64,000 nucleotides of DNA, taken from Azolla caroliniana (lineage: Eukaryota > Plantae > Polypodiophyta). The notes beneath the pieces were generated by a model. The model did not search any database. It was not told where the DNA came from and saw nothing but the letters and a program-made list of their open reading frames with translations. The first letter of the stretch is position 1. Each line of letters starts with the position of its first letter. Location: positions 11,718,001 through 11,782,000 of the forward strand of contig JBHGNT010000013.1 in assembly GCA_043228905.1 (NCBI GenBank). The letters run 5' to 3'. Both the position numbers and the translations under genes were made by a program. Positions 1,296-27,002 of this stretch are shown here, in pieces.

Positions 1296-1553
1296 TTGGG
1301 AGATAAAAACCTTCTAAAAATAGCATGAACGTGGATAAGAAGAGGAAGGTTATAAAAGAAGAAGTGATATTAGTGAGGAGGGAGGCTAAGAGTGAAGGCC
1401 AAAGAGTGGATGAGGAGTGTTAGGAAGAAGTGTCTTTGTGGAAGAGGAAGTGTCTTAGAAGAGGAAGGTCTTTGGTTTTAGTTCAATGTGGAGTTTGTCT
1501 CCTTTGTATTCTCTTGATGTTGGAATATCAGAACATTCTTATTTCTTGCTCGC
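1296..1553 (+). repeat. Element A 5' LTR, left part
   Basis: Matches 10278-10533 with about 1 substitution seen. Confidence 0.9.
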
Positions 1554-1686
1554 TGTCAGGAACTCTATTAAGGCAGAGAAGGAATTAGTACTAAAAGAAG
1601 GATTAGTACTATTGTTGGGGAATAGTACTAAGACAGAGAAGGATTAGTACTATGAGAGGTGTCGAACTTTGAGAGAAGGAATGAGT

Positions 1687-1744
<58 letters not shown>

Positions 1745-2034
1745 TGATGCGAAAGATATATGTATTATATGACGGAAGATATACAACAGTAGTTAGAAGG
1801 CTTAAGACTGGCGTTGAACCGATTTGGTTCGAACTAATGCCTTGCGCCTCCTTTTATAGTGTCTTCAGGAATACTCCTGAAGTTTCTAGAATGTTCCAGA
1901 GAAATCTGGAATATACATCAATTTCCTAATAAAACCTAAATGAAAATAATATCCTTCAAATTACAACTCATAACCTAATGGTAAAGTCTCGACCCGTGTA
2001 ACAAAAGGTTATGGGTTCGAGTCTAGTTATGACA
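1554..2034 (-). repeat. Element B 3' LTR (481 bp, contains (GA)25)
   Basis: Appears identical to 6872-7336 except for the GA tract length (25 vs 17 units). Confidence 0.97.
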
Positions 2035-5000
2035 CTATCCCCCCTTTAAAACGACGAGTTTCACGAGTCGTTTTGGATTGAGGACCCGGTTTCTCGGGAT
2101 ATCGTCGATGGAAGTCTTCTAGAAGAGCACGAGCATTGGTCACATTCTTGATCGGTTCCCAAGTACGCTCGCTGGGACTATATCCTAGCCAATCGACTAG
2201 ATAGTAGAGCTTGTTGCGAACAATCTTGGAATCGAGGATGGCAGCGACCTCATACTCAGGTCCATCTTCGAGCTCGATAGGAGGTGGAGGTTGTATAGTA
2301 CGTCCTGGGATAGTGCTCTCGTGATAGGGTTCGAGGAGAGAACTATGAAACACCGGGTGTATCCGAAGTTGCGGAGGTAGCTCGAGACGAAAAGCGACAT
2401 CATTAATCTTCCCGATAATACGGAAAGGACCTAATCGTCGATAATCCAACTTCTCACATGGGCGAGTAGTCTTGATGTGTCGTCGTAGCAGCCACACCCG
2501 ATCTCCAATGTTAAAACTGGATGGAAGTCGATGACGATCTGCGTAGTCCTTGTGTGATTGTTGAGCTTGCTGGAGTTGAGTAGATAAATCCGCTTGTATC
2601 TTGCGTAACCGCTCCAAACGATCCTCCGCGCAAGGATTTGTGGACACTTCTGGGGTTTCAAGGACACACCACCGGGGATGATATCCCGTATAAGCGTAGA
2701 ATGGCGTGACTTTAGTCGATGCGTGGATAGCGTTATTATAGGCAAATTCGGCGAACGGAAGAATATCTGCCCAGTCATTCTGATGATAGTTGAGAAAGCA
2801 CCGCAGATACTGCTCCAGTGTTTGATTTGTTCGTTCGGCTTGACCGTCGGTTTGTGGGTGGTAGCCGGAGGAGAGGTTACAAGTGACCTTCAGCATTTTA
2901 AAAAGGTGCTTCCAGAATTTTGACACAAACTGGGGTCCACGATCGCTGATGATATTATCAGGGAGTCCATGATGCCGACATACTTCCCGCATGACAATTT
3001 CGGCGGTGTCTTCACTAGATATTTCTTTAGTACATGGTAAGAAATGAGCCATCTTCGTATATCGATCCACCACTGTGAGAATCGCACTGAATCCCTTAGA
3101 GACTGGAAGATCTGTAATGAAGTCAAGAGCAATGGATTGCCATGGCTTGCTTGGAATTGGTAATGGTTCTAATAAACCATATGGATGATGTCTTGGCATT
3201 TTCGCTCTGCAGCATGTATCGCAAGTCCGAACAAAATCTTCGACAAATTGTCGCATACGGGGCCACCAGAATGATCGTTGTACTAAATCTAATGTTTTAG
3301 TACTACCAAAATGTCCTGCTGTATATGTGTCATGGCAGTTTTGTACTACTCGAAGGCGGCAAGAACCATTAGGAACATACAAAAGTTCTTTAAAGAAGAG
3401 TAATCCATCACAGTATTTGAATTGCCGATAATCCGTACCTGGTGATTGTGATTGTGAACATGACGCTCGAGAGGGGTCAATTTGTGCTAGTATAGCTTGG
3501 GCGAAAGCGTCAGTCTTCAAGTCCTCACGTATAGTATTGGTAATGTCGGAATCCACGGGCATGTCAAAGATCTGTGCTGCTTGCAGTCGTGTTGGACCCA
3601 AGATTACTTGCTTCTGGTTATCGAAAGCTGGCTCACCGGGACGTGGTGTTAGATACGAACGCCGTGATAATGCATCTGCCTTCCCTTGGTGCTTCCCCGG
3701 ACGATATGTAATTTTGAAGTCGAAGCGTGTGAGGAAATGGGCCCACCGAGCTTGACGTCGATTCAGTACACGAGCATCTTGAAAGTAGGCAAGGTTCTTG
3801 TGGTCACTGAATACAGTGACCTGATGAGGAGATCCCTCCAGGAAATGCCTCCATTGCATAAAAGAATCAACTATTGCTAATAGCTCTTTATCATGAATTT
3901 CGTAGTTGATTTCGGCGGCGTCAAACTTACGGGAGTGGAAAGCCACAGGATGTAGCTTCTCGTCGTTACCCTGTTGTGACAGAATGCTCCCCAATGCGAA
4001 ATCCGATGCATCAGCTTCGATAATGAATGGTTTTTCCGGATCCACATGACCTAAAATTGGAGCTGATGTAAACGCCTTCTTAAGACTCTCGAAAGCCATG
4101 TCCGTCTCTTTAGACCAAATGAATGATTGTCCCTTCCTGGTGAGCTGTGTGAGAGGCAGCACAATTTTTGAGTAATTTTGTATGAACTTCCGGTAGAAAT
4201 TTGCAAAGCCTAGGAAGCATTGCACATCCCGCACCGAACGCGGAGTGTGCCATTCTATCACCGTTTTGACCTTGGCTGGGTCCATAGATATGCCTTCTGA
4301 GGAGATGACATAGCCGAGAAACTCCACTTGGTTGCACCCGAAACTACATTTCTCTAACTTTGCATACAGACCATGTTCTCGAAGTCGTTTTAGTACTAAT
4401 AGTACATGAGAATCATGTTCTTCTTGGGTCTTTGAATAAACCAGTAGATCATCCAAATAGATGATCAAAAAATCATCCAAGAGGTCTCGAAATATATCAT
4501 TCGCCATGTGCTGGAAGACTGCCGGCGCATTAGTGAGTCCGAACGGCATGACCGTATACTCGAAGTGCCCATATCTGGTGCGAAACGCGGTCTTCCATTC
4601 ATCTCCTGGTCGGATCCGTACGAGGTTATAGGCTCCTCGTAAGTCGATCTTCGTGAAGAACCTGGCACCGTTGATCCGTTCTAAAAGACTTGAGATAAGG
4701 GGAAGAGCATACCTATTTCTTACTGTGACCTTATTCAAGCCACGGTAATCTACAACGAGTCGAAGCGAGCCATCTTTTTTCTTGACGAAGAAAATGGGTG
4801 CGCCGGCTGGAGATTTCGAATGCCGAATGAAACCGTTCTCCAAATTCTCCTCTATATAGGCTCGAAGGACTTCTAGCTCGGTTGGTGACAAATTGTAGAT
4901 CGGCCCCCATGGCGGCTCTTTTCCCGGTTGTAAGTCGATGGCGCAGTCGTACGGCCGATGATGAGGAAGTGTGTTGGCTTGTACTTTATCGAACACATCA

Positions 5001-5623
5001 GCATACTGACGATACTTCTCGGGAAGTTGAACGGTGGACTCCTCTTTGGTGGTGCTGGAGGGTTGTACTGATATTGCAAAGAGAAACATTTCCTCCTTGC
5101 GCCCTTCCTCACGCAACTGACGTAGCGAAATGGTTGCAACCTTCTGGGTAGATCCTTGGGTTTGTCGCAACCGGATTTCCCTTGTCCTCCAATCTATGTC
5201 TGGGTCATGTAACTCGAACCATGGTAATCCTAAAACTATGGGATGTTCTGGAATACTAATAATATTAAATGATACTACACATGTTAAGTTATCTAGGACA
5301 ATATTAACGGGTTCCGACTCTTCTATGATATTACCAGAAGCAATGGGACGACCATCAATGACTACTACTGAGGCTGGACATGGGAGCTTTCTGAGAGATA
5401 TCTGATGAGCTCGGGCAAAATTCCTATCCATGAAGCAAGAATTAGCTCCGGAATCTAGAAGGGCTAAGGTATGTACTGGAGGGGTACTTTTAGTACTAAC
5501 TGCTACTTGGACTACGAACACATCACTAACTTGCTTAGAGGGAATGGAACCACTAATGGGCTGCACAGATCTAGGGCTGTCCAACCAAACGGCTCCTATT
5601 TTGGCTGGACTTAGTCGTTTAAC
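2027..5623 (-). CDS. pol: Pol polyprotein of B: aspartic protease, RT, RNase H, integrase, chromodomain; probably expressed by -1 frameshift from gag
   Basis: LLDSGA protease, YLDD RT, ADASD RNase H, H-H-C-C zinc finger and DDE integrase, GPF motif, chromodomain EYEVAAILDS...YLVDWLGY...TWEP. The frame is open upstream of the listed TTG (5584) through the slippery site. Confidence 0.95.
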   Translation of the reverse strand, partial: VKRLSPAKIGAVWLDSPRSVQPISGSIPSKQVSDVFVVQVAVSTKSTPPVHTLALLDSGANSCFMDRNFARAHQISLRKLPCPASVVVIDGRPIASGNIIEESEPVNIVLDNLTCVVSFNIISIPEHPIVLGLPWFELHDPDIDWRTREIRLRQTQGSTQKVATISLRQLREEGRKEEMFLFAISVQPSSTTKEESTVQLPEKYRQYADVFDKVQANTLPHHRPYDCAIDLQPGKEPPWGPIYNLSPTELEVLRAYIEENLENGFIRHSKSPAGAPIFFVKKKDGSLRLVVDYRGLNKVTVRNRYALPLISSLLERINGARFFTKIDLRGAYNLVRIRPGDEWKTAFRTRYGHFEYTVMPFGLTNAPAVFQHMANDIFRDLLDDFLIIYLDDLLVYSKTQEEHDSHVLLVLKRLREHGLYAKLEKCSFGCNQVEFLGYVISSEGISMDPAKVKTVIEWHTPRSVRDVQCFLGFANFYRKFIQNYSKIVLPLTQLTRKGQSFIWSKETDMAFESLKKAFTSAPILGHVDPEKPFIIEADASDFALGSILSQQGNDEKLHPVAFHSRKFDAAEINYEIHDKELLAIVDSFMQWRHFLEGSPHQVTVFSDHKNLAYFQDARVLNRRQARWAHFLTRFDFKITYRPGKHQGKADALSRRSYLTPRPGEPAFDNQKQVILGPTRLQAAQIFDMPVDSDITNTIREDLKTDAFAQAILAQIDPSRASCSQSQSPGTDYRQFKYCDGLLFFKELLYVPNGSCRLRVVQNCHDTYTAGHFGSTKTLDLVQRSFWWPRMRQFVEDFVRTCDTCCRAKMPRHHPYGLLEPLPIPSKPWQSIALDFITDLPVSKGFSAILTVVDRYTKMAHFLPCTKEISSEDTAEIVMREVCRHHGLPDNIISDRGPQFVSKFWKHLFKMLKVTCNLSSGYHPQTDGQAERTNQTLEQYLRCFLNYHQNDWADILPFAEFAYNNAIHASTKVTPFYAYTGYHPRWCVLETPEVSTNPCAEDRLERLRKIQADLSTQLQQAQQSHKDYADRHRLPSSFNIGDRVWLLRRHIKTTRPCEKLDYRRLGPFRIIGKINDVAFRLELPPQLRIHPVFHSSLLEPYHESTIPGRTIQPPPPIELEDGPEYEVAAILDSKIVRNKLYYLVDWLGYSPSERTWEPIKNVTNARALLEDFHRRYPEKPGPQSKTTRETRRFKGGIVS
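2035..2050 (-). promoter_or_regulatory. Polypurine tract of element B
   Basis: Minus strand reads AAAGGGGGGATAG immediately before the LTR TGTCA. Confidence 0.85.
5579..5623 (-). promoter_or_regulatory. Programmed -1 ribosomal frameshift signal (G_UUA_AAC + 6-nt spacer + 11-bp stem)
   Basis: Minus strand GTTAAAC GACTAA GTCCAGCCAAA-ATAGGAGCCG-TTTGGTTGGAC. pol is in the -1 frame relative to gag. Confidence 0.8.
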
Positions 5624-6780
5624 TCTTCTTCTAATTGGCTAAGGACATCAAATTTGTTTGCGAGATTCGGACTATTAGTACTATTAGGACTATTATGACT
5701 ATGAGGATTATCAGAGATTCCTACTGACATAGACTCGGGTTTAGTATAGTCAGAACTAACAATGACTTGGTTTACCTGCCTTCTTGGTCTATGGGGACAG
5801 TTTATCGCGATATGCCCTGGTCCACCGCAATAAAGGCATAATCGGTTTGTTCGGCGTCGTTGCTTTTCCTCCTCCGATAGCGGCCCACGACGACGTGTAG
5901 TGTCAATTTCCATTGGAGTTGGAGTACTTACTGGAGGCGCATTATGTGACTCCCTTTGAAAAGGTTTCGCTACCATTGAGGCATAGGTAGGCTCGGATCT
6001 TGCCCTCGGCATCTGAAATTGTCGTTCCGAACGTCGCTCGAAGAGGCGGTTGTCACATCTGACCGCTCGACTGATTGCTTCTGTTAATGATTTTGGCTCT
6101 TCAGGGAAAGTCAAGAGTAAATCCTTGACATCGTTGCGTAGACCATAGCGGAACTGCTCCATCAATGCTTGATCATCCCAGGGGATATCGGCGGCGAGTA
6201 GGCGGAAATCTGCAGCATATGCGGAGGCTGGACGGTCACCTTGGCGTAATCGCCGGATTTTGTTGATTGCAGTCCTTATGCTGTCAGTATCTCCAAAACA
6301 TGCTTTAAACTCACTTATGAATTCTTCAAAATTATTTAGTACTGGAGATTCCTTTTCTAGTAGCGGAGCGAACCATGCTAATGCTGAGCCATTTAACAAC
6401 GTGCCTACTAAACCCACTCGTGATGCATCGGTGGGATATCGGGACGGATGCATTTGAATAACTAACCGTACCTGGTTAAGAAACCCTCTAAACTGCGATC
6501 GCGTTCCATCGAACTTCGTGGGAAGGCCAATCTTGGGTTCTTTATGAATCCCTTGTGCTCCGTGCCCTTGTTGTTGCATTGCTACGATGGTTGCTTCGAG
6601 TTGTTGCACGCGTAACGCAAGTTCCCCATGCTGTTGTTGCGTTTGCTGCTTTTCTAAGGAAATTTGCTGAAGATCCCCCAACAAGCGTTGATTTTCTTGT
6701 TCCAAAGCATGAAACTTCTCTTTCAAGCATTGAAATTCCGAGAAAACGGATTGATACTCTTCAGCGCTAACGGTGGCCAT
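5611..6780 (-). CDS. gag: Gag of B (coiled coil, Ty3/PEG10-like capsid, CCHC knuckle)
   Basis: 389 aa. P.KFDG motif, LRQG..A..Y...F major-homology-like region, PMEID, CLYCGGPGHIAINC. Confidence 0.95.
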   Translation of the reverse strand: MATVSAEEYQSVFSEFQCLKEKFHALEQENQRLLGDLQQISLEKQQTQQQHGELALRVQQLEATIVAMQQQGHGAQGIHKEPKIGLPTKFDGTRSQFRGFLNQVRLVIQMHPSRYPTDASRVGLVGTLLNGSALAWFAPLLEKESPVLNNFEEFISEFKACFGDTDSIRTAINKIRRLRQGDRPASAYAADFRLLAADIPWDDQALMEQFRYGLRNDVKDLLLTFPEEPKSLTEAISRAVRCDNRLFERRSERQFQMPRARSEPTYASMVAKPFQRESHNAPPVSTPTPMEIDTTRRRGPLSEEEKQRRRTNRLCLYCGGPGHIAINCPHRPRRQVNQVIVSSDYTKPESMSVGISDNPHSHNSPNSTNSPNLANKFDVLSQLEEELND

Positions 6781-6857
6781 GGGATGAAGGAAAAGGGAAA
6801 TAAGAGACTAGTAGGAAAGGAGAGAGACAGAAGGAAGAGGGAGACTAGAAGGAAGAA

Positions 6858-6869
6858 AAATCGGTTCAA
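6858..6869 (-). promoter_or_regulatory. Non-tRNA primer-binding site of B (self-priming type)
   Basis: TTGAACCGATTT, 2 nt after the 5' LTR, lacks TGG and is the exact complement of LTR sequence 7116-7127 on the same strand. Confidence 0.8.
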
Positions 6870-6871
6870 AC

Positions 6872-7004
6872 TGTCAGGAACTCTATTAAGGCAGAGAAGG
6901 AATTAGTACTAAAAGAAGGATTAGTACTATTGTTGGGGAATAGTACTAAGACAGAGAAGGATTAGTACTATGAGAGGTGTCGAACTTTGAGAGAAGGAAT
7001 GAGT

Positions 7005-7046
<42 letters not shown>

Positions 7047-7336
7047 TGATGCGAAAGATATATGTATTATATGACGGAAGATATACAACAGTAGTTAGAA
7101 GGCTTAAGACTGGCGTTGAACCGATTTGGTTCGAACTAATGCCTTGCGCCTCCTTTTATAGTGTCTTCAGGAATACTCCTGAAGTTTCTAGAATGTTCCA
7201 GAGAAATCTGGAATATACATCAATTTCCTAATAAAACCTAAATGAAAATAATATCCTTCAAATTACAACTCATAACCTAATGGTAAAGTCTCGACCCGTG
7301 TAACAAAAGGTTATGGGTTCGAGTCTAGTTATGACA
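6872..7336 (-). repeat. Element B 5' LTR (465 bp), TATA box at 7154-7160
   Basis: Direct repeat of 1554-2034. TATAAAA on the minus strand. Confidence 0.97.
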
Positions 7337-7341
7337 CTCGC

Positions 7342-7494
7342 CTTCTCTATCTTTTTTCTTAGTTTCTTGAGTTATACTCTCTAATCATAATTACCTAGAG
7401 CTATATAATATATTATGATTTTAAACTCCATCTAATCGGTTTGGTCAAGCCCTCATATAGTGTATAACTATCTATTATCTTATACACTCTATCA
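7342..7494 (+). repeat. Element A 5' LTR, right part
   Basis: Matches 10534-10686 and ends ...CTCTATCA. Confidence 0.9.
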
Positions 7495-7498
7495 TTTT

Positions 7499-7515
7499 TG
7501 GCGCTCCAGGGAGGG
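7499..7515 (+). promoter_or_regulatory. PBS of element A (tRNA-Asn-like)
   Basis: TGGCGCTCCAGGGAGGG, 4 nt after the LTR. Resembles the complement of the plant tRNA-Asn 3' end (from memory, imperfect match). Confidence 0.55.
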
Positions 7516-7582
7516 CGGATCCTTTCCGTATAGGAAGAGAAGTTATCATTTAATTGTGTTACTATATTACATTAACTTAGCT

Positions 7583-8944
7583 ATGCAATTTGCATTTTCG
7601 GGTGAAAGAACACAAGATGCTGGTGCCTTTTTGGCATGCTTTGAGCATCATGCCATATCTATTGGACGCATCACCGACAACGAAAAGTTGCCCTTGTTGG
7701 TAGCTACATTCTATGGTCGTGCTCGAGATTGGTATGACTCTCTTCCGCAAAATGAACAAGGAGAATATCAATTATTGGTGCATCAATTTCGTACAAGATA
7801 TATTCAATGGAAAAGTGCAACTGAGGTAAGGGAGGAGCTTTTTCAACTAAAGATGGAATCACCTTTTGGTTTTTTAGAGTATGAACGAAATTTCCAAGAA
7901 TTGTGGACGACGTGGATTCGTCTTCGTGGTGGCACCGAAGACGAGTGGTTTAAGATAGAACAATTTAAGGTGGGCCTTGATATGCATTTCCGTTTGGAGG
8001 CAAGCTTGAAGGATCCAACGACTTTTCAAGCTCTTCTCCAAGTTTGTCAAGATTATGATCGACAAGTGAAGATGATGAGTTCCATGGGGGATCCCCAAAT
8101 GACGGCTTTGGGTGCAAATTTGATGCCTCGTGCCAACTTTCAAGCCTTATCTTCAATTGTGCATGGTGGACAAGTGTTTCCAAATGTGTATACCACCACA
8201 ACAATAAACCCAACAAGTATATCTCAAGAAGTGGAACAAGTGAAGAGTGAACAAGATACAATGGCGTTGGTGAATCGGCGCTTTGATGAAGTGATGGCCC
8301 ACTTGCAACAATCCCAAGCAATTCGCAACACTATTCCCGATGGTGGTGGCTCTAGAGGGCATCAAGGTGTAATTTGTTATTCTTGTCAAGAGGAGGGACA
8401 CTCAACAAGATGTCCTCATCGACAACAAAGAGGTATGGAAAGAGACATGTATGAAGTGCAACGGAATGGACAACGACCTATCAACAATGGAGTCGAAGGA
8501 AACGTAACACTCCCTATGGCTCAGGTTCCTACAATTCCTCATAATGTGAATCTTCTTAATTTTATTGATGATAGTGATAATTCTTTTGAAGTAGCTCCTG
8601 TGAAAAGGACAAGGTCCTCGCAAAAGGAGAAAGAAGTTGAAGGAGGATCTAGTGCCTCAAGACAAAAGAAGAAGTCTAAGGAGAATGAGAAAGAGGAAAA
8701 ATTGAGAAGGAGACACTCTAGAAGAAAGATCAAGATGGAGGACATTCCTATGGGTGAAGGTGTAGAAGCTTTCAATTTGAAGCATGAGTTGATTTCAAGT
8801 GGACCAAGGATAACATGGCCGCAACTTCTCCAATTATCTCCCACATTACGAAAGGAGTGGGGGCGACTTGCAAGTATTCGCCAAAGTCGGAAGACTGTGC
8901 ATTATGTGGGAATCGTGCGAGTAGAAGATCGAAAGGACATATGA
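7583..8944 (+). CDS. gag: Gag-like protein of element A
   Basis: ATG at 7583. FSGE...A.DWY retrotransposon capsid pattern and a CYSCQEEGH..C knuckle. Ends at a single TGA in frame with the protease. Confidence 0.75.
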   Translation: MQFAFSGERTQDAGAFLACFEHHAISIGRITDNEKLPLLVATFYGRARDWYDSLPQNEQGEYQLLVHQFRTRYIQWKSATEVREELFQLKMESPFGFLEYERNFQELWTTWIRLRGGTEDEWFKIEQFKVGLDMHFRLEASLKDPTTFQALLQVCQDYDRQVKMMSSMGDPQMTALGANLMPRANFQALSSIVHGGQVFPNVYTTTTINPTSISQEVEQVKSEQDTMALVNRRFDEVMAHLQQSQAIRNTIPDGGGSRGHQGVICYSCQEEGHSTRCPHRQQRGMERDMYEVQRNGQRPINNGVEGNVTLPMAQVPTIPHNVNLLNFIDDSDNSFEVAPVKRTRSSQKEKEVEGGSSASRQKKKSKENEKEEKLRRRHSRRKIKMEDIPMGEGVEAFNLKHELISSGPRITWPQLLQLSPTLRKEWGRLASIRQSRKTVHYVGIVRVEDRKDI

Positions 8945-9676
8945 CCCACCATCCCCGTCTCCATCAAAGGGTTTCACATCAAAGATGCGTTGGTTGATAG
9001 TGGTGCTAGGGTAAGCTTGATTTCTGAATTTGTAGTAAACAAAGTAGGAATTCCTATTAGTAGGTCATCTTCAACAAGGGTGGTTGTAGTAGATAGTGGA
9101 GTGGTGCATTGCACAAGCATAGTGGAGGATGTGTTCATCAAGTGTTTTGGAATAAGAGGAGAAGCTTGCAACAAATACCACATCAACTTGAAGGAAAGTG
9201 TATCAATTTCCCCAAAGCTTCGGCAATTGAGTGTTGAACAAAAGGAAGAATTTATGCAAGAGTTCAACGCATGGTTACAAGAAAGTTCCAATTATAAGAT
9301 GGAAGATTTGAGGTATGTGTCACCTATAGTTTTGGTTCCAAAGAAGAATGAGATCAATTTCAAACCCTTGAATGATTCGACCAAACGAGATGAATTTTCA
9401 CTTCCTTCTCGAGATGAGATTGTCGATAAAATGGTTGTTTATACAAAACAAGGTAGTGTGGACAATATGTTGTGCCAAAAAGGATTTCATGTGGATGATT
9501 CAAAGATTAACATAATTACAAAGATGACAATTCCGACAAGTCTTGAAGCTTTGAAAGTATTTGTGCAAAAGGTGCGCTCGCTCGAAAGATTCATTTATAT
9601 GTTGACATGCTTACTGCTATCAAGAGTGATGTATCCCATGGCCCTACTAGTCTTTGGAGAGTTAACGAAGACATAA
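8945..9676 (+). pseudogene. Protease plus internally deleted RT remnant of element A
   Basis: ALVDSGA protease and SPIVLVPKKN / DEFSLP..DEI RT N-terminal motifs, joined directly to GFHVDDSKI (RT C-terminal part). No YxDD, RNase H or integrase. Confidence 0.75.
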
Positions 9677-9937
9677 TGATTGTGGTAACCTCTTTCTTTG
9701 TGTTGACAAGGAGAAAGATGATGATGGAATTGTCAATGTGTGTGTGGGTGTGTCTAGGAGTGTGAGGTTTTTCCTACCGACTAGCGGGGGTTTTACTCAC
9801 ATAGTTTGTTTCTTTTTCTTCTCTCCTTCTTTGTCTATAGCCTACCATAAGGCGAAGGAGTTTTTTTTATTCTTTTTATCTTCGGCTCACCATAAATGGT
9901 TCGCTCAACAAGCAAGGGGGGGGGGGGGGGAGCTAAA

Positions 9938-10686
9938 TGTGAAAGTGTTTTTTGAATTCAAACCATTGAACACTAGATGGATATAAAGTATGGATAATTC
10001 ACATTTGGAGGATAAGAACACGAACTAAAACCTTAGGGAAGAAGTCAAAAGTAAAAGTACGAGACCAAGAGAAAAGTAAAAAGAGAAAACGCAGACTATA
10101 AAAAACAGTAAAAATAGAATGGTCATAACTCCCTCGTTGTTTATCCAAATATCACGTTTAAATATGGATTAGAAAGCTTGTAAAAAGAGCTTTCTATAGC
10201 TTTTTAAATCGCTTAATTTGGATATCGGATGAGGGAGATATGACGATTAGAAGGTCGATGTGTCATAGCTAAAAATAGGGAGATAAAAAGCTTCTAAAAA
10301 TAGCATGAACGTGGATAAGAAGAGGAAGGTTATAAAAGAAGAAGTGATATTAGTGAGGAGGGAGGCTAAGAGTGAAGGCCAAAGAGTGGATGAGGAGTGT
10401 TAGGAAGAAGTGTCTTTGTGGAAGAGGAAGTGTCTTAGAAGAGGAAGGTCTTTGGTTTTAGTTCAATGTGGAGTTTGTCTCCTTTGTATTCTCTTGATGT
10501 TGGAATATCAGAACATTCTTATTTCTTGCTCGCCTTCTCTATCTTTTTTCTTAGTTTCTTGAGTTATACTCTCTAATCATAATTACCTAGAGCTATATAA
10601 TATATTATGATTTTAAACTCCATCTAATCGGTTTGGTCAAGCCCTCATATAGTGTATAACTATCTATTATCTTATACACTCTATCA
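9938..10686 (+). repeat. Element A 3' LTR (start inferred from PPT 9914-9932)
   Basis: G15 tract, then TG at 9938. Only 10278-10686 is shared with the 5' LTR. Confidence 0.7.
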
Positions 10687-11079
10687 GCGTGCATGAGCCC
10701 TATACTTAGGAAATGACAAAGCATCACATGCACATTTAGTGTGCATGGACACTTTAGGTGAAAAAGCATGAAGCCATGCTTAGCCTCTTCCATCTTTATA
10801 TAAGGAGGAGAGAAATATGTATAAGGTTGTTGATTAATATACAAGGATGGATCAATCTAATATATTCGTGGGATTCACGAATTTTGCCATCTAAATTACT
10901 CTTATAATCTAAATATTGTTTTAAAATACACTAAACTCGTGGGATTCACGAGATTACTATCTTACTTCTCTTCCTATTAGTCATAACTAGCCTTAAGTTG
11001 TATTGCTCTTCCTCCTAGTCCAAAACCTCGGCGGTTCCCACCCGACTCACGCAACGATCCGGAGCCGAAGGGCACGACA
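10687..11079 (+). mobile_element. Element D: 3' portion of an LTR of the TGTC...GACA gypsy clade
   Basis: Ends ...CACGACA exactly where the LTR homology of C begins. Carries the clade U5 motif GTCCAAAACC...GGTTC at 11018. Confidence 0.6.
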
Positions 11080-11413
11080 CCGTGTGCACAAAACCATGGT
11101 TTTAGCCCATGGTTTTGTGCATGTCACAAGCATGGAAAGACCTATAAAAGCCTCTAGTTGGGCTTGTGTAAGGGGGGCTCACTATGTGATATCACCAACA
11201 CCACTATCATCAATATAATTATATTTGTCTTTATCTTCTTCATATTTTTCTATTTCTCAAGTGTACAATCTTTCTTCTTCTCAAGTGAACAAATTTCATC
11301 CAATCTTACATTGATCGTCATCTCTTCGATAATTCCGCGAACGTCCTCCTCAGTCCAAGACCCCGGTGGTCGCTCGAGGAGCACACGCACGCGCGAATCT
11401 TCGCGACAACATT

Positions 11414-11431
11414 TGGTGAACCCGACGTGAA
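11414..11431 (+). promoter_or_regulatory. PBS complementary to tRNA-Trp
   Basis: TGGTGAACCCGACGTGAA, identical at 24306 and 26352. Complement of the plant tRNA-Trp 3' end (from memory). Confidence 0.85.
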
Positions 11432-11452
11432 GAGTAGCAGGGGAGGACGAAG

Positions 11453-13105
11453 ATGGATGGCGAATATCTTATGGAGGCAATGTCAAAAAGGATGATGGAG
11501 TTTCTGAGAGAAGGGAAAAGAAGAAATGATGCCCAACAAGCCGTCGATAGGGTAGTCGAGCGAGTGAGCTATTTCAACGGCGCTGAAGTCCAAAGTTTTC
11601 TAAAAGTCTACAATGTGGAGATGGATTCAAGAGGTGTGGACGAAGCTATGAGGCTGGAGTACTTTTGTCGGGTGGTGTCTCAACCAATCTTCAAAGATGT
11701 AAAAGAGCTTCTAGAAGCTCATGATAGGTGGGCGACTTTCAAGAAGGCTCTATTGGAGGAATATGGCTATGAGAGACAAAAAGGACGAGATCGACGCAAC
11801 TTCGACCAATGGGTGACATCGGCGAAGACCCACCAAGGCGCGACACAAGCATTCGTAGACTTCGAGCATCGTTTTTCTCAATTGTTGGAGCGGGAACAAA
11901 GATTGGTGGGGGTCGATAAGGTCCTTATGTTCGTGAAGTCAATTGATCGAATGGAAAGGATGGCCATCGGCCTCAAACTCGAAGAAGATGATGGTGCAAA
12001 TGGCCTCATCGAGGATTGGAGCAAAGTGGAAAGTGTATGCCGACTACATGATAAGGGGCGAGCGAGAATATCGACGACAACAAGATGGCCCATGAGGGAT
12101 GATCGAAGAGGGGCGAGATGCAACAACGCGCCACCAACAACAGAAATAAAGCTTAAAAGGGAGACAAAACCGAGGCGAATGGTGATCGAGGAAGAAGAGA
12201 CCTCCCAACAAATGCAGGTTAATGAACTGGCCGATACAAAGGCTCAGGTTCGGTATGACGGTACCAAGAGAGAAGGTGCGAAACAAGTCACCTTCTTGTC
12301 TTACAAAGAAACGACGGCCAAGGACGAGGCCGATGATTCGAGGACGGAGAATGCCACTTCGAGGGAGGATAAATGTTTCGGAACACGCATTGTGTACGAA
12401 ACATCGGGTGATGAAGGTGCAAGCATGAGAAAAGCTTGCATGATCGAGGGAGATAAAGTGTTTGGGTCCGACGTGATTGAGGAGGTAGCCATGACAAACG
12501 ACATCGAGTCGGAGGTGTCTATGGACGAGTCGACGACGGATAGCCATGTCGACACTTTCTTCACGCTTGTTCCAGAGACTTCGGCGGTTGCGCCCATGTG
12601 CCAATGTGAGACCGGAGAGACAGAAGGTGGTGACGGGAAGAAGAAGGCCCAACACGAGGAGGAAGAAGATCGAGGACGAAAGGATATCCCCACACCTATT
12701 CTAGAGACTTCGGCGGTTGTGCACATGCGCCAACGTGAGACCGGAGAGACGGAATGTGTCGACGAAAAAGCGGAGGAGCGGAAGGGAGATGAGGAAGACA
12801 AGGTAAATGTGCATGAGTGAAGGGATTCCTTCACACCGGTTCCGGAGACTTCGGCAGTCGAGACCGTGTGTCGACATAAGACCGAAGATAAAGGAGGTGG
12901 CGAAGAGGAGTCAATATGGCTCGAGGCAAGCATACACAGAGGGAAGGATATGGCCAACGAGGAGGCCAAGGATGAAACCGCGGTTGAGTTCGATGGAGAG
13001 GCTGCATGCGGGAAGGAAGGAAGAGTCGAGAACCGGTCGAACCGGAAGACGATCCGGCCGGGATTCCGGCCTGAGCGAAGGAAGATCCACATGGGAGGCG
13101 ATTGA
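11453..13105 (+). pseudogene. gag: Gag capsid-like N-terminus fused to an acidic repetitive tail, with one in-frame TGA at 12818-12820
   Basis: N-terminus aligns with the G/H gag (F.G..V.S.L..Y..EM; D..L.FVKS.D). Three T.V/I.ETSAV repeats. ORF 12866-13105 is in the same frame. Confidence 0.7.
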
Positions 13106-14624
13106 CAGGGGCCGACTCGGCTGAAACCTGATTTGGCGAAAATCGATCGGACGATTCCGATCCAAAAGGGGGCCGACCTAGCCAGAATCAGTCGGTCGAG
13201 CCCGACTCGGGAAAATGCGAATGCAAACGAAGGCCAACCGAGCCAAGAAGTGATTGGCGGAGACCGATCCGGACAAGGTTAAACCCGGCATAATCGGAGA
13301 TGGACACGAACGATCCACAACACCTAGTTGAAGACGGTGAGCGTGAGGAGTGGCCAGGAATCCAATCGAAGGACACGCACGGTGGACGAAGGAAGAGCGG
13401 TCGGATCCATGACATCGTTCAGTAGATCTACTACAACCGATCGGGGAAGGTGTGAGCGCCGGATATGGTGGATCGGATGGCCACGGTGGTTCAGTTGGAA
13501 AGATTACGCATATTCGAAGTGGAAGACAAAGTCTGACGAGGTTGACGAGCGTGCAGAGGAACTTGGTTGATCACCGTTGCCAAAGATCTCACCTCTTCAC
13601 CTTTCTCGGCACATACCAGAGGATGTGCGGGTTTGGTGGGGGTGGATGTCGTGACGATTTTCGGCTACGGTGTGAAACCGAGTGAGACGAATAAACCAAG
13701 GATGTGCAACATTGCACATGCACTTAGCAAATAAACCTAAGGCCTAGTGGCACTTGAGTTCATACAGAGGGGCGCAAGTAAGGGTTGAACCTTGCACCTC
13801 TAAGATACAAGACAATTGCCTTACCACTAGGACAACTATCATATAGTGTAAATTTTATGTATTTACTTTTCATATATGAATTATAGATGAAACAACCATT
13901 AGAAAACCATGTGCACAAAACCATGGTTCTAAACCCATGGTTTGTGCATGACATAAGCAAAACCGTGTGCACAAAACCATGGTTTTAGCCCATGGTTTTG
14001 TGCATGTCACAAGCATGGAAAGACCTATAAAAGCCTCTAGTTGGGCTTGTGTAAGGGGGGCTCAATATGTGATATCACCAACACCACTATCATCAATATA
14101 ATTATATTTGTCTTTATCTTCTTCGTATTTTTCTATTTCTCAAGTGTACAATCTTTCTTCTTCTCAAGTGAACAAATTTCATCCAATCTTACATTGATCG
14201 TCATCTCTTCTATAATTCCGCGAACGTCCTCCTTAGTCCAAGACCCCGGTGGTCGCTCGAGTAGCAGACGCACGCGCGAATCTTCGCGACAACGTGGAAA
14301 ACCCAAATATGGGAAAAACCACAGCAGCCCTCAGACTGCAAAATATCACTATGTAAAGTAATACAACAATGGGGCACAAAGGCAACGACCTCTTGCTCCC
14401 TCGCTTTGCCACCAGGCGGTTACAATAGAGGCAACAACCTCTGTATATCGCTCTCGCTACCTCTCTTACTTACGCACTGTACAGAGGTTACCCCAATAAC
14501 TCTATCATCCTAATCATCAGGTTGCCCTAGGTCATATTTATATTAATATGACTTTCGGGCTATTTACAAATATAGCCCCAGTGGGCTCTCTGGAACATAT
14601 TTACATATATGTCCCTTCCATCCG

Positions 14625-14820
14625 ATGAGAGGTTCTCACCGGGCTTGCAACATCTGATTCTTACTGGGTCTTCCATTGCCGGGTACGCCACATCCGGTTC
14701 TAACTGGGTCTTCCGTTGCCGGGTACTCCACATCCGGTTCTCACCGGGTCTTCCTTTGCTGGGTACTCCACATCCGGTTCTCACCGGGTCTTCCGTTGCC
14801 GGGTACGCCACATCCGGATT
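14625..14820. repeat. ~36-bp tandem repeats in the U3 of E LTRs (also ~19400-19555, one unit fewer)
   Basis: Unit ccgggtac(g/t)ccacatccggttctcaccgggtcttccgttg. Confidence 0.8.
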
Positions 14821-14900
14821 TGGCCTCGGCCGAGTTGCTCATCAACACTGTCCTTCTCACTTCCCATCCGGAGGGACCTGTTTCCTAACAAACTCCCCCT

Positions 14901-17900
14901 CCACTCCGGCATGGGATGTCTTACTAGTCCGATCCGCTTCCGACATGCATCCAGCTTGTCGGGTATCAGTACTTTGGTCAGCATATTTGACCCGTTCTCG
15001 GTCGTGTGGATCTTCGTCAGCGCGAACTCGCGATCTTCTACTCGCTCCCAGATTCAGTGATACCTACGCTGGATGTGCTTCGTCCTGGAATGGTACGCTG
15101 TGTTCTTAGCAAGGTGGATGACACTTTGACTGTCGCAATAGAGCCGGTATTCATCTTGCCGGATACCGAGCTCACCGATGAAGTCCTTCATCTATAATAT
15201 TTCCTTGCTAGCTTCCACAGCCGCCATGTACTCCGCCTCTGTGGTTGACAACACAACCGTCTTCTGCGGCCTCTTTTGCCACGAAACAACTCCCCCTGCA
15301 TATGTCATTACATACCCGGATGTAGACCGGCTGGTATCCACATCAACTGACATGTCCGAATCGGTAAAATCGTCAAGTTGAGGTTTATCGGAGCCGAATC
15401 GGAGAGACATATTCGAAGTGCCCTTCAAGTACAGGAGTATCCATTTGACCGCAATCCAGTGCTCCTTGTCGGGATTGCTCATAAACCGGCTCACCACTCC
15501 GACTGCGTATCCAATATCCAGTCGAGTACACACCATTGCGTACATTAAGCTCCCGACGGCAGAGGGATATGGCACCTTCATCATATCCACCTTCTCTACT
15601 TTCGTCTTCGGGATTTGCTTACCGGATAATCTGCAGTTTGCCGGAAGTGTCGATCCGACCGGTTTTGCGTTTGACATGTTGAACCGTTGAAGCACCTTTG
15701 TCACGTACTTCTCCTGTGACAACCACAATTGCTTCTTTGGCCGGTCCCAGATGATATACATCCCCAACATCTGTCTTGCCGGATCCAAGTCTTTCATTGC
15801 GAAAGTTCGGTTGAGAGCCTTCTTCAGCATCCGTATTTTGGCTTGGTCCCGTCCGACGATCAACATGTTGTCCACGTACAGAAGGAGTATCAGGAAGTCG
15901 CCTCCTTCAAACTTCTTCACAAACACGTAGTGATCGACCTGCGTCTTGTGGTACCCTTGATCGGTCATGAAGGAGTCGAACTTCCGGTACCATTGTTGGG
16001 GAGCCTGCTTTAGTCCGTACAGGCTCTTCTTCAACCGGCAAACCAGGTGCTCCTTCCCTTTCTCCACGAATCCTTCCGGTTGCTGCATGTAGATCTCCTC
16101 TTCGAGGTCACCGTGAAGGAATGTCGTCTTCACGTCTAGCTGCTCTACCTCAAGGTCCATGCTTGCCGCTATACTCAGCACCGTCCGGATGGAGGTCATC
16201 TTTACTACCGACGCAAATATCTCATTGAAGTCCACACCCTTCTTCTGCTGGAACCCCTTCACCACGATCCTGGCTTTGTATCTCGGGGGGTTGCCGGCAT
16301 CTCCCGGTTTCAACTTGTATACCCACTTGTTTTGGAGTGCCTGCTTTCCTTTCGACAACTCCACCAATTTGTACGTATGGTTCTCATGCAGGGAATCCAT
16401 CTCATCTTGCATGGCACTTAACCATTTGCGGCTATGGGCGTCAGTTTTAGCTTCCTCTAAGCTTTCTGGCTCCCCCTCATCGGTTAGCAACACGTGCTCT
16501 GGATCCGGAAATCTCCGGGGGGCCCTTCTCTCTCTGAGAGGATATCTCCGTCTTTGGCTTTTGGCAACCGGCTCCTCTATTTGTTCTTCATCTGAATCCG
16601 ATTCGGGGTTTTGGCCGGTTCCGGTTTCAGCTTCCTCTACTTCTTCTTCTGCCGGTTCGGTATCCACACTGTAACCGGCTGGTTCCTCGAGTGTCAATCG
16701 ACTCTTAGCTGGGTGGGTCTGAATCTCATCGGAGTTCATTATCTTCTTCTCTGACTCCCAGTCGGCAAGATTCTTGTCCTCCATGAAGATAATATCTCGG
16801 CTCTGGAAAACCTTCTGGTCAACCGGGTCCCACACTCGGTAGCCGAACTCATCGTCTCTGTAACCCAAGAATATGCATGGCCGGGTCTTCAGATCCAACT
16901 TTCCTCTCCGGTCCTTAGAAACATGCACGTACGCGAGACACCCGAATACCTTCAGATGCCGGTAGGACACTTCCTTACCGGTCCAGACTCTTTGTGGCGT
17001 GTCTCCGTCCAAGGGTACTGAGGGTGATCTGTTTATCACATATATCGCCGTTGACAGTGCCTCAGCCCAAAACTTCTTGGGTAATTTTGCATGCTCTAGC
17101 ATATTCCGAACCCTCTCCATTATGGTCTGGTTCATCCTCTCGGCCAGCCCGTTTAGTTCCGGCGTCTTCGGCACGGTAAATTCGAGCCGGATTCCCTTCA
17201 AGCGACAGTACTCCTCGAATTGCCCCCGTTATCTGCTTGAACCGCCTTCAGCTTCCGGACGGTTTCTCTTTCCACTCTCGTGTGGAGCTCTTTGAAGACG
17301 TATAGCACCTGATCCTTCGTCTTCAATGGTGTGGTCCACAGCCTCCTGCTGTGGTCATCTATGAACGTCACAAAGTACTGTGCTCCGGCATGGGACTTTG
17401 TGTCCACTTGACACACATCGGTATGCACCAACTCCAATGGTGCATTACGTCTCATCGGTGGCCTTGATTGGAAGGAGGTCCGGTTCTGCTTACCGGCTAG
17501 GCAGTTGGTGCACCTCTCAAGATGCACGTTCTTCACCGGAATGAGGTTGTCATCGACAAGCCTCTTCATCCCCTTCACGCTCATGTGACACAGTATCTTG
17601 TGCCACAGCTCACCGGCAGTGTCGCAAGCCATGTTCACTTCTTCCGGGCATAACCGGGCATTCATCAGGTACAACGTGTTAACCTTCTAGGCCCGAGCCA
17701 CCATCAGGCTCCCTTTGCTGAATTTCATGACTCCGTTCCGGATGCTACCCGTGTAGCCTTCATCATCTAGCCGACTGGCTGATATTAGGTTCAATCGAAC
17801 CCCCGGAACGTGTCAGACATCCTTCAACAACAGCTTGCATCCGGTTGGTGTTGTCAACCACACATCTCTTGTGCCGACAATTCGGCATGTACCTTCATTT

Positions 17901-18889
17901 CCTATCCGGACACAACCGTGATCACCGGTTGTGTAGGATGAGAAGTATTTACAGTTCGGGGTAAGGTGGAACGACGCTCCAGAATCAACAACCCACGTTG
18001 TCTCGTTGCCGGCAAGGTTCAAATCACTCTCCTCGGTGATGCGCATAGACTCTTCTTCGCTTGCTGCGATTGCCATCGTTCCCTTCTGGTCCGGCCCCCT
18101 CCGGTCTTTACCGTTTCGGTCCGGTGTCCGCTTCGAATCGGTACTGTCGGTTTCCTTGTCTTTTCGGAAGTGCCGACAGTTCTTCTAGAAGTGTCCCAGC
18201 TTGCCGCAATAGAAGTAGGTAGGCCTCCCCCTTGACTTTGATCGTGTCCCCGACTTCTCCCGGTTCTGGGGACTATGGTTCTTTTGTCTTTCACGTTCTG
18301 ATTCGGTAAGGAGCGCTTTGGAGTCGGAGCTCGTGTCCTTATCTTTCTGATGCGGCTCTTCATCTAGCAAGCTCGACTTCACTCCTGCTAGGGATAACCG
18401 TTTCCCTTCCGGCCCGGCGTTGCCCAAAGTGACAACCAACGTCTCCCAGCTATCTGGGAGGGAACCGAGTAGGAGTAGTGCTAGTACCTCATCGGCGAGA
18501 GGTACTTCCAATGATGTTGCGTGGTGAATCAGCCCCTGGAAGGCATTCATGTGCTCCGCCATGCTGGAGCCATCTTGGTACCGGAGTCTTACTAGCTTCC
18601 GAAATACCGAAACCTGATTTACAACATTTTTGTTCTGAAACATAATGCCGATCTTCTCCCAGAGCTCATGAGCCTTACTCTCTTTATATAAGTTGTTGTA
18701 TAGAGTCATGTCACTGAAGCACAGTATGTACGCCGTTGTCTTCATGTGCATCACCTCCCATATCGTGGCATCGATTTTGTCCGGTCTCTTGTCCCCGAAC
18801 TAAACCAACAACCAAAGATCTTTAACCACGAGCATGTCCCTCATCTTCGACTTCCACACGGAATAGTTGGAGCCGGTGAGCTTGAACAT
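14901..18889 (-). pseudogene. Copia gag-pol of E, with frameshifts and stops
   Basis: Fragments 18185-18754 (gag), 17813-18076 (VDSGASFH protease), 17198-17674 (integrase) and 15192-17201 (integrase-RT-RNase H; YVDD mutated to YVDN). Confidence 0.9.
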
Positions 18890-19627
18890 GACTCCCGACG
18901 AATCGTCCGTTTTTCTGTGTCGTTTCACTCTGATACCACTTGATCGGAATACAGTTCCCTAAGCTATGCTCGGCCACAACCGAGACGTCGGATCAATCAC
19001 AGAAAACAAGGATGTGGGGAGATGTATCTACACACGAAACAATAAAGAAGAGAGTGCACAGGATGTTAACGTGGAAAACCCAAATATGGGAAAAACCACG
19101 ACAACCCTCAGACTGCAAAATATCATTATGTAAAGTAATACAACAATGGGGCACAGAGGCAACGACCTCTTGCTCCCTCGCTTCGCCACCAGGCGGTTAC
19201 AATAGAGGCAACAACCTCTGTATATCCCTCTCGCTACCTCTCTTACTTACGCACTATACAGAGGTTACCCCAATAACTCTATCATCCTAATCATCAGGTT
19301 GCCCTAGGTCATAGTTATATTAATATGACTTTCGGGCTATTTACAAATATAGCCCCAGTGGGCTCTCTAGAACATATTTACATATATGTCCCTTCCATCC
19401 GATGAGAGGTTCTCACCGGGCTTGCAACATCTGATTCTTACCGGGTCTTCCGTTGCCGGGTACGCCACATCCGGTTCTCACCGGGTCTTCCGTTGCCGAG
19501 TACTCCACATCCGGTTCTCACCGGGTCTTCTGTTGTCGGGTACGCCACATCCAGATTCGGCCTGGGCCGAGTTGCTCATCAACACTGTTCTTCTCAATTC
19601 CCATCCGGAGGGACATGTTTCCTAACA

Positions 19628-22970: not shown

Positions 22971-23807
22971 ACGTAGATAGGTACAAGTCGGTTGAGGTGA
23001 AATCCTAGGTAGCAGGCATTCATTAAGGAGAAAATCGCTTCGGGCGTATGCGCGTATGTGCGTATGCACGGTCATGTTAACGCTTCGGGCGTATGCGTGT
23101 AGGTGCGTATACACGGTCGTGTTAAGGCTTCGGGCGTGTATGCATGGCCACGTGGACGTCTTCGGATGTACATGCGTGTGCAAGTTTCGGGCGTACGCGT
23201 GCACGGTTGTATGGACGTTTCAGACGCGCGCAAGCGTGGATGCGTGGATGCGTACATTGCGGCATGGTCGGGACTTTTGCGTGCTGACGAGCGCGCGGAT
23301 GCGTACACGACGCGGTCGGGACGTGCGCATGCATGGATGCGTACACTACGCGGTCGAGACTTTTGTGCGCGGATGCGTCTACGGATTGGTTGCGACGCAC
23401 GTACGGATTGCGCACGGGCTAAACTTTATGGATGATTGGGTCATTTGGCTGAATTATACGGACAATCGCATGCAACCAAAAGCCAAGGCCATGCAACTAA
23501 AAGTAAAAGGCAGGCATCTAAAAATGGAAGCATGCAACTAAAAGTAGAGGCCATCCAACTAAAAGTGGGCATGCAAAGTAAAAATCGATTTTCTTTTGCA
23601 AATAAACTAATGATTTGTCTCTCCCACTTGTGTTATGCTTAAAACTTGCTTGTGTTGTACATGTTGCTCTAAATCCTTCTAGTCCAGAACCCCCGCGGTT
23701 CCGTCTCACGATCCGCACATAGTGATGGATTTTCATGACAACGTAGATAGGTACAAGTCGGTTGAGGTGAAATCCTAGGTAGCAGGCATTCATTAAGGAG
23801 AAAATCG
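22277..23807. repeat. ~765-bp tandem duplication spanning the I/G junction
   Basis: 22277-23037 is repeated at 23038-23807, with CG microhomology at the join. Confidence 0.88.
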
Positions 23808-24346
23808 AGGCGTATCCCTGTCCGAAAGGACAGGGAATAAACATGATGTAATGGGTGGTAATGGCCTCCCTCCTTGGGCTATAAAAGAGAGGGAGAGGTA
23901 TGGGGAAAAGGGGGATCGCGCTTTGTAGAGGACGAAGTGCTGCTGGATTGGAACCGAGCTCTTCTCCTCTGTCTTCTCCATAGTCGTTCTATGCAGGTTT
24001 TCAGGAGGCCGACTTTGCTCCGCGGAACGCCCGAATGCTTCCGGAAGAGCCTCCATCTCGCGTTCTGTGTGTATGTGCAAGCGTCGGAGCCTATCACTTG
24101 CCGACTTGCCGGTTGTAACTCGGTTTATATATACATATACATTCGTTCTATCTCCATTGTTCAACTCCTGTGAATCTGTGTGTCTGTGTGTGTGTGAAGC
24201 ACATTGGTGGTTTCCTTCCCCTCTTCTCATTCGGTTATTCCTTGGTCGAAGGCCCCCGTGGTCCCGCCTCGTTCTCCATGCACGCGCGTAACTATGCGAC
24301 ATAATTGGTGAACCCGACGTGAAATAGGCGGCAGAGGAATAGAAAG

Positions 24347-26239: not shown

Positions 26240-26272
<33 letters not shown>

Positions 26273-26390
26273 TTCCTCACCTATTCCTCGGTCCAAGACC
26301 CTAGTGGTCCCGCCTTGTTCTCCACGCACGCGCGTAACAACGCGACATATTTGGTGAACCCGACGTGAACAGGTGGCAGAGGAGTAGAAG

Positions 26391-26894: not shown

Positions 26895-27002
26895 TTGCTT
26901 GACGGGAACCTTACGTTCCTTTTGCACGACGCTCGGCCACAACCGAGCGTAGTGTGATACACAGAAAACGGGAAGAAAAACACGACACAAAGGAGAGGAA
27001 GA

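What the first reader, a model, noticed from the sequence alone, without database searches (positions are those of the whole stretch)
6858..7160. Self-priming (tRNA-independent) PBS in an intact young chromovirus
The PBS position of B reads TTGAACCGATTT (minus strand, 6869-6858) and has no TGG. Its perfect 12-nt complement AAATCGGTTCAA lies in the LTR at 7127-7116, starting 33 nt from the start of TATAAAA (7160), where the transcript 5' end is expected. This is the geometry of S. pombe Tf1, whose first 11 mRNA bases anneal to the PBS and are cleaved by RNase H to form the primer. The element has open gag and pol and apparently identical LTRs apart from a microsatellite, so it may be active.
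Basis: partly seen in the sequence, partly recalled or inferred. Interest (0 to 1): 0.72.

Follow-up and report, generated by a model that had tools for sequence, protein, structure and literature searches.

The report
Self-priming Tcn1 retrotransposon, likely moss
A young, intact jumping gene has no tRNA docking site; the 12 bases after its left repeat pair with the predicted start of its own RNA, and relatives keep this pairing with different letters, so it likely primes its own copying, a trick shown in yeast Tf1 and already predicted in print for this plant group of elements.

Summary
Observation confirmed. The element (7336-1554, minus) is an intact Ty3/gypsy chromovirus with LTRs identical but for a 16-nt microsatellite indel and a 5-bp TSD. 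After CA-GT the PBS (6869-6858) has a perfect 12-nt complement at 7127-7116, 33 nt from TATAAAA (1 of 20,000 shuffles). In 45 related sites plus this one, 17 different PBS 10-mers track their own LTR (311 Watson-Crick + 5 G-U of 322 free positions). Pairing stops at a pyrimidine/A step, mostly 31-33 nt from TATA, the expected start. Self-priming is likely; start site, cleavage and activity were not shown (no RNA data, no host tRNA set). It files under the plant Tcn1 clade (about 79% RT identity to SM-Tcn1, by eye), for which Neumann 2019 already predicted self-priming in 83% of 1500 elements; this scan noted the same layout twice before in other, moss or probably moss, genomes. Extras: SM-Tcn1, published as lacking such a site, has the same layout; and a U3/R hairpin (z -5.35; 16 of 38 sequences) would mask the 3' copy of the primer. 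New member of a known kind.

The parts
1554..7336 (-). Whole element, 5,783 bp, Ty3/gypsy chromovirus of Tcn1 type
6872..7336 (-). 5' LTR, 465 bp, TG...CA
7154..7160 (-). TATA box TATAAAA; 31-33 nt before the primer start in 38 of 41 sites with a run of 10 or more pairs
7116..7127 (-). Predicted self-primer AAATCGGTTCAA; predicted +1 at A7127, preceded by C
   Evidence: start site inferred
7108..7114 (-). Short conserved tract after an unpaired C7115 that can pair with the GT spacer and the GAC of the LTR end (candidate second duplex)
   Evidence: pair 14 is A-U in 15 and G-U in 10 of 25 rows; GTC/GAC 94.7% paired, little two-sided change; not significant by energy
7097..7154 (-). Predicted U3/R hairpin that buries most of the primer copy; can form only where U3 is in the RNA (3' LTR, or a start upstream of +1)
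   Evidence: -24.9 kcal/mol, z -5.35, 0 of 200 shuffles; without U3 z 0.02
6989..7042 (-). TC microsatellite in R/U5, 16 nt longer in the 3' LTR
6870..6871 (-). GT spacer between LTR end and PBS; likely the 2 nt trimmed by integrase
   Evidence: conserved in relatives; role inferred from retroviral knowledge
6858..6869 (-). PBS TTGAACCGATTT, no TGG, complementary to 7127-7116
5611..6780 (-). gag, 389 aa (Retrotrans_gag, Ty3_capsid, weak CCHC knuckle)
5617..5623 (-). Candidate -1 frameshift heptamer G TTA AAC in the gag/pol overlap
   Evidence: function inferred
2027..5638 (-). pol frame, 1203 aa: protease, RT (YLDD), RNase H, HHCC and core integrase, SH3, chromodomain with Y1129-W1150-Y1153
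2038..2047 (-). Polypurine tract AAAGGGGGGA
1554..2034 (-). 3' LTR, 481 bp; second copy of the primer sequence at 1825-1814
1549..1553 (+). Target-site duplication CTCGC, left copy
7337..7341 (+). Target-site duplication CTCGC, right copy; the sister LTR of the host element holds the empty site with one CTCGC at 10529-10533

Best explanation
This is a young, intact Tcn1-type chromovirus whose PBS is the exact complement of a 12-nt LTR tract, and it likely primes reverse transcription with that tract as the predicted 5' end of its own RNA, as yeast Tf1 does. Shown: complementarity, covariation in relatives, intact gag/pol, TSD. Inferred steps: (1) Pol II starts at A7127; (2) nt 1-12 loop back 246 nt onto the PBS; (3) the element's RNase H would cut after nt 12, beside the unpaired C13, giving a 3' OH; (4) RT would copy the GT spacer and U5-R, jump to the 3' R, and finish; (5) plus-strand synthesis would copy the primer back into the PBS, which helps keep the two matched; (6) integrase would trim GT to expose CA. 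A U3/R hairpin would keep the 3' copy of the primer from competing.
For: Perfect 12-nt complement 2 nt after the LTR, 1 of 20,000 shuffles; pair probability 0.56-1.0 when folded from 7127. 31 of 78 fetched loci held both sites, found by flanking motifs and not by complementarity: 23 pair 12 of 12, 4 have one G-U, 3 one mismatch, 1 two. Over 12 distinct haplotypes 101 of 108 free positions pair, permuted mean 67.8, 0 of 100,000. 10 of 20 pairs change on both sides, 53 cells, 0 of 500 shuffles. With 14 more sites: 17 PBS 10-mers, 311 WC + 5 G-U of 322. Pairing stops at the predicted +1: positions -1 and -2 pair in 2 and 1 of 32; the -1/+1 step is CA or TA in 40 of 41. Neighbouring LTR elements, 6 of 8 repeat pairs with a TGG PBS, reach only 5-7 nt of self-complement. 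SM-Tcn1 has the same layout. Tcn1 clade: self-priming predicted for 83% of 1500.
Against: No start-site, cleavage or cDNA data. Host tRNAs could not be searched (no genome). The flanking duplexes of the Tf1 'pretzel' were not recovered by energy: leader-to-LTR duplex p<=0.05 in 3 of 29, U5-end duplex in 4 of 29. 5 of 46 sites have unbroken runs under 10 nt and L063, left out of that table, pairs at 10 of 12. L062 and L068 have TATA 38-40 nt away. Relatives are contigs that may collapse many copies, and kin share changes. One contig joins U3 plus primer to antisense U5, which a 5'-end primer would not give.
Confidence: 0.9

Rival explanations
1. The same 12 bases prime, but from another copy: the 3' LTR copy of R, or a longer transcript cut after the primer, so the primer carries U3 at its 5' side.
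For: The sequence is present twice in the RNA. One contig in run X6 (depth 3.5) reads U3 and primer, then antisense U5 from the GT spacer.
Against: Pairing ends sharply at a pyrimidine/A step mostly 31-33 nt from TATA, which fits a true 5' end. With U3 attached the primer is buried in a hairpin in this element. The contig is single, from a run only guessed to be RNA, and any template switch at a 12-nt match gives this join.
Confidence: 0.04
2. A host tRNA or half-tRNA primes, and the LTR match is a structural pairing with another job (packaging, circularisation).
For: Half-tRNA priming without TGG exists in plant copia lineages. Host tRNAs were not searched. L077 carries TGGTATCAGAGC 9 nt behind its self-matching site.
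Against: No TGG; 17 different PBS 10-mers each follow their own LTR, which a host tRNA would not explain. Half-tRNA priming was reported only for Ty1/copia. The window's element has no second PBS-like tract in its leader.
Confidence: 0.04
3. Chance complementarity in one copy.
For: Two other 12-13-nt complements to the LTR exist in the internal region.
Against: Position right after CA-GT, 1 of 20,000 shuffles; compensatory changes in relatives.
Confidence: 0.01

Closest known systems
Plant Tcn1-clade chromoviruses (REXdb, Neumann et al. 2019, PMC6317226; passages and supplementary file MOESM5 read)
   Same: Chromovirus of 5.8 kb (clade range 5,466-9,444), 5-bp TSD, overlapping gag and pol frames, chromodomain with aromatic cage, no tRNA PBS, LTR complement of 10 nt or more starting 0-5 nt after the LTR (the paper's own test).
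   Different: Nothing essential. The passages read give a prediction by sequence match; covariation, the fixed TATA distance and the U3/R hairpin were not in them. The element table and domain FASTA were too large to read and may list this family.
SM-Tcn1 of Selaginella moellendorffii (Novikova et al. 2010, PMC2864245; passages and supplement S3 read)
   Same: 161 of 205 RT-core residues identical (79%, counted by eye). Its record reads TTGACA-GT-TTGATTCAGATT after the LTR and AATCTGAATCAA-CACCAGTC in the LTR, 33 nt from TATATA: the same layout and flanks.
   Different: Other primer letters; its complement extends 3 nt further (by eye). [quoted passage not shown]
Tf1/Tf2 of Schizosaccharomyces pombe, Tj1, Tosmo1-3 (Tf1/sushi group); seen through PMC7175516, PMC4600332, 10.1101/2022.12.06.519325, PMC11042837, PMC5341516 (passages only; the original Levin papers were not held)
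   Same: Chromodomain-bearing Ty3/gypsy element; PBS just after the 5' LTR pairs with the 5' end of R; intact RNase H residues.
   Different: Predicted primer 12 nt against 11; gag and pol in overlapping frames rather than one frame or a stop; the two flanking duplexes of the pretzel are only partly seen; mechanism proven for Tf1, not here.

Membership tests
Ty3/gypsy chromovirus | Domain order PR-RT-RH-INT with C-terminal chromodomain | tested here: met
   RVT_1, RT_RNaseH, Integrase_H2C2, rve, SH3_Tf2-1, Chromo (E 6.7e-14); protease below Pfam cut-off but LLDSGA present
Ty3/gypsy chromovirus | TG...CA LTRs, PPT, TSD | tested here: met
Tcn1 clade | Clusters with Tcn1 in an RT-RH-INT tree | tested here: inconclusive
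   No tree with REXdb references (file too large). By eye 161 of 205 RT residues match SM-Tcn1; most named hits from other hosts were 43-64% identical over their best segment
Tcn1 clade | Group I chromodomain with aromatic cage (Y24, W45, Y48) | tested here: met
   Y1129, W1150, Y1153, spacing 21 and 3
Tcn1 clade | 5-bp TSD, length 5.5-9.4 kb, overlapping gag/pol frames | tested here: met
Tcn1 clade | LTR complement of 10 nt or more to a stretch 0-5 nt after the 5' LTR, no tRNA 3'-end match | tested here: met
   12 nt at offset 2, no TGG; criterion
Tcn1 clade | Host is a moss or club-moss | tested here: inconclusive
   Neighbours carry TGGTATCAGAGC and TGGTGAACCCGACGTGA sites (read as Met and Trp PBS from memory) and one has a 4-bp ATGG/ACGG flank, as described for moss Phygy; no host gene seen in the window
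Tf1-type self-priming | Transcript 5' end coincides with the primer | not testable with these tools
   Only contigs were served; indirect support from TATA distance and pairing boundary
Tf1-type self-priming | Primer/PBS pairing maintained through sequence change | tested here: met
Tf1-type self-priming | Two flanking duplexes (pretzel) | tested here: inconclusive
   U5-end duplex conserved but short; neither flanking duplex significant by energy, 4 and 3 of 29
Tf1-type self-priming | RNase H cuts the duplex and the fragment primes | not testable with these tools
   RNase H motifs present; needs experiment
tRNA-primed LTR elements | PBS begins TGG and matches a tRNA 3' end | tested here: not met
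   PBS begins GT-TTG
Half-tRNA-primed elements | PBS matches an internal tRNA segment | not testable with these tools
   no host genome; no tRNA gene in the window

The most novel reading that the evidence does not exclude
Tcn1 elements carry an 'anti-primer' in U3, between TATA and +1, that co-evolves with the self-primer and locks it in a hairpin wherever U3 is transcribed. Only a molecule that starts exactly at +1 then has a free primer: the 3' LTR copy and read-through transcripts from neighbouring elements are shut out. This would be a start-site checkpoint for self-priming, and this intact young copy would be a ready plant test system.
Probability: 0.3. Interest if true: 0.55.

Novelty: new member of a known kind. 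Interest (0 to 1): 0.27.

Why it matters
Self-priming is proven for yeast Tf1; for the plant Tcn1 clade the papers I could read give a prediction from sequence match only. The covariation and the sharp pairing boundary found here strengthen that prediction, fix a testable start site and cut site, and correct the statement that SM-Tcn1 has no priming site. The copy is intact and very young, so it is a usable substrate for a test in a plant. The mechanism itself would not surprise a specialist. The U3/R hairpin would, if it proves to gate priming.

Tried and rejected
Own genome: not held, so no host tRNA search and no copy count. Expression: no RNA holder listed; the runs laid were contigs and cannot show a start. 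Original Tf1 papers and the Esnault/Levin review were not held. REXdb element table and FASTA too large, Novikova DOC files unreadable. First scan of relatives by longest inverted repeat gave false picks where the LTR was cut, so it was replaced by motif-anchored scoring. The 14 sites added were picked partly by best complement and lean towards pairing; the unbiased set is the 31 loci. Dropped before the count of 46: six gag-proximal PBS sites whose R region is not in the contig (L003, L005, L027, L031, L055, L064 plus strand; homology stops short, mostly at the TC repeat), five with too little upstream DNA (L014, L017, L023, L024, L028), and L063 (10 of 12). In one search two of 25 rows (L076, L077) are misaligned, which lowers the counts. 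A third, outer helix (AGC/GGC with U5) was only 68% paired and is not claimed. Leader duplex of the pretzel: not found. In the narrow hairpin test (26 nt of U3 plus primer) this element alone was not significant, p 0.17; it is in the wider window. Fold-back joins like the X6 contig: none credible among 77 PBS-like sites of the 78 loci. No other Tcn1-type PBS in the window. Look-ups of earlier notes by sequence and by place gave nothing relevant.

Full report
Anatomy. The element lies on the minus strand from 7336 to 1554 (5,783 bp). The 5' LTR is 7336-6872 and the 3' LTR 2034-1554; they have no substitution and one 16-nt indel in a TC microsatellite. The 5-bp duplication CTCGC flanks it. The element sits inside one LTR of another Gypsy-type element (1298-7494, sister LTR 10278-10686), and the sister LTR holds the empty site with a single CTCGC; the host LTRs differ at 1 of 414 positions. 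So the insertion is real and younger than an already young host. gag (6780-5611, 389 aa) and pol (5638-2027, 1203 aa) are open and overlap in the -1 frame over G TTA AAC (frameshifting inferred). Pol holds protease, RT, RNase H, integrase, SH3 and a chromodomain, with catalytic motifs and the cage residues Y1129, W1150, Y1153 (cage defined in PMC3350952, passages).

Observation. After the LTR's CA come GT and then TTGAACCGATTT (6869-6858). Its perfect complement lies at 7127-7116, 33 nt from the start of TATAAAA. One of 20,000 LTR shuffles matched this well; two other 12-13-nt complements to the LTR occur elsewhere in the internal region. Folding from 7127 to the gag start gives the duplex pair probabilities of 0.56-1.0. 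As an internal control, eight other repeat pairs in the window, six with a TGG-type PBS, reach 5-7 nt in either orientation.

Relatives. A gag alignment (42 of the 120 listed proteins) found 295 relatives in metagenome contigs, of which the best 80 were kept as 78 loci. In 31 loci both the PBS and the primer site could be placed by their flanking motifs alone: 23 pair at 12 of 12, 4 have one G-U, 3 one mismatch, 1 two. The motifs fix three pairs; at the nine free positions 101 of 108 cells pair over 12 distinct haplotypes, against a permuted mean of 67.8 (0 of 100,000). On an alignment of 25 rows, 10 of 20 pairs change on both sides (2 of 500 shuffles) in 53 cells (0 of 500), and sliding the partner drops pairing from 90% to 20-52%. 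These shuffles ignore kinship, but the gag tree shows the main PBS types on separate branches, with at least 10 changes among 11 types. Fourteen further sites, picked partly by complement, extend the set to 46: 41 have unbroken runs of 10-13 pairs, 17 different PBS 10-mers occur, and 311 Watson-Crick plus 5 G-U pairs fill 322 free positions. Rows dropped are listed under Tried and rejected.

Where the RNA starts. No start was observed. Indirect signs: pairing ends abruptly, with positions -1 and -2 paired in 2 and 1 of 32 rows; the step there is CA in 38 and TA in 2 of 41; TATA lies 31-33 nt upstream in 38 of 41, 38-40 nt in 2, and is not held in 1. The 3' end of the duplex (CAA with TTG, beside GT) is fixed while its length varies from 10 to 13, so the cut would be set by the LTR end, after nt 12 here (inference).

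Mechanism. For Tf1, the first 11 bases pair with the PBS and RNase H cuts between bases 11 and 12 (PMC7175516, passages); about half of the cDNA keeps a copy of the PBS at its 3' end (PMC11042837, passages); Tf2 transcripts that start downstream of the LTR cannot support reverse transcription (PMC5341516, passages). The same path fits here, with a 12-nt primer. Tf1 also needs two flanking duplexes (10.1101/2022.12.06.519325, passages). A short one at the LTR end is conserved (pair 14 A-U in 15, G-U in 10 of 25 rows; GTC/GAC 94.7% paired), but neither flanking duplex beats shuffles by energy (4 and 3 of 29).

What is known. Neumann et al. 2019 (PMC6317226; passages and file MOESM5) place moss and club-moss Tcn1 elements with the Tf1/sushi group and predict self-priming for 83% of 1500, with 5-bp TSD, overlapping gag/pol and caged chromodomains. 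This element meets those features. Its RT core matches SM-Tcn1 at 161 of 205 residues (by eye). Novikova et al. 2010 (PMC2864245, passages) found no priming site in SM-Tcn1, yet its record shows the same layout with other letters. The host is likely a moss: neighbours carry PBS types and a 4-bp flank described for moss lineages (tRNA names recalled); this was not confirmed. Two earlier notes of this scan describe the same layout in other genomes. Seven paper searches were answered; their listings and the passages read showed no experimental test in a plant, but the Levin and Butler originals were not read and REXdb's large supplements could not be.

A side finding. The stretch from TATA across +1 (7154-7097) folds into a hairpin of -24.9 kcal/mol (z -5.35, 0 of 200), which vanishes without U3 (z 0.02) and is the strongest of the 47 windows scanned along the LTR and leader. 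It recurs at z <= -3 in 16 of 38 distinct sequences, against 2 of 38 for the next window. In L073, L075 and L076 the U3 arm matches three unrelated primer sequences; over 13 lineages, own pairs beat permuted ones (22 of 100,000), a result carried by those three. It is absent in more than half of the sequences, and template switching could create such palindromes without function. If functional, it would hide the 3' copy of the primer and any primer in a read-through transcript. Searches (listings only) showed no description of it; that is a weak negative.

Verdict. Real feature, likely self-priming (0.9), new member of the Tcn1/Tf1-sushi kind. Interest 0.27; the hairpin-gating reading has probability 0.3 and would deserve 0.55.

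Noticed in passing
window 1298-10686: The element is nested in the 5' LTR of a young Gypsy-type element with gag and a stop-broken protease/partial pol; its sister LTR keeps the empty target site (10529-10533).
   Followed up: yes
L077 1133-1165; L076 1910-1945: A distant relative carries TGGTATCAGAGC (Met-tRNA-type PBS, name recalled) 9 nt behind its self-matching PBS; L076 has a decayed version. Possible double priming site or a captured LTR end.
   Followed up: no
window 7116-7198, run X6: One contig (201 nt, depth 3.5) joins U5-GT-PBS of a related copy to antisense U3 exactly at the primer: a fold-back product, made in vivo or in the library.
   Followed up: partly
window 7154-7097; L008, L010, L073, L075, L076, L077: U3/R hairpin that buries the primer copy, with different letters in different lineages.
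   Followed up: partly
PMC2864245 supplement S3 (SM-Tcn1 record, positions 395-406 and 499-510): Self-primer and PBS are present although the paper reports none.
   Followed up: yes
window 11079-14293, 23741-40200, 25655-35187: Three elements with PBS TGGTGAACCCGACGTGA; the one at 11079-14293 is short (about 3.2 kb) with a 460-aa frame (11438-12820) that has no Pfam match.
   Followed up: no
window 27003-32188, 14291-19552, 52179-57995: Three copia elements; 27003-32188 has LTRs 99.3% identical and a 1226-aa open frame, nested in the Gypsy element at 25655-35187.
   Followed up: partly
window 6960-6890: Four AGTACT palindromes form two small hairpins in U5 of this subfamily, absent from most relatives, whose R-U5 is about 100 nt shorter.
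   Followed up: no
window 47700-51000: Broken minus-strand frames that look like a DNA-transposon transposase (my reading of the translation; the one frame scanned had no Pfam match).
   Followed up: no
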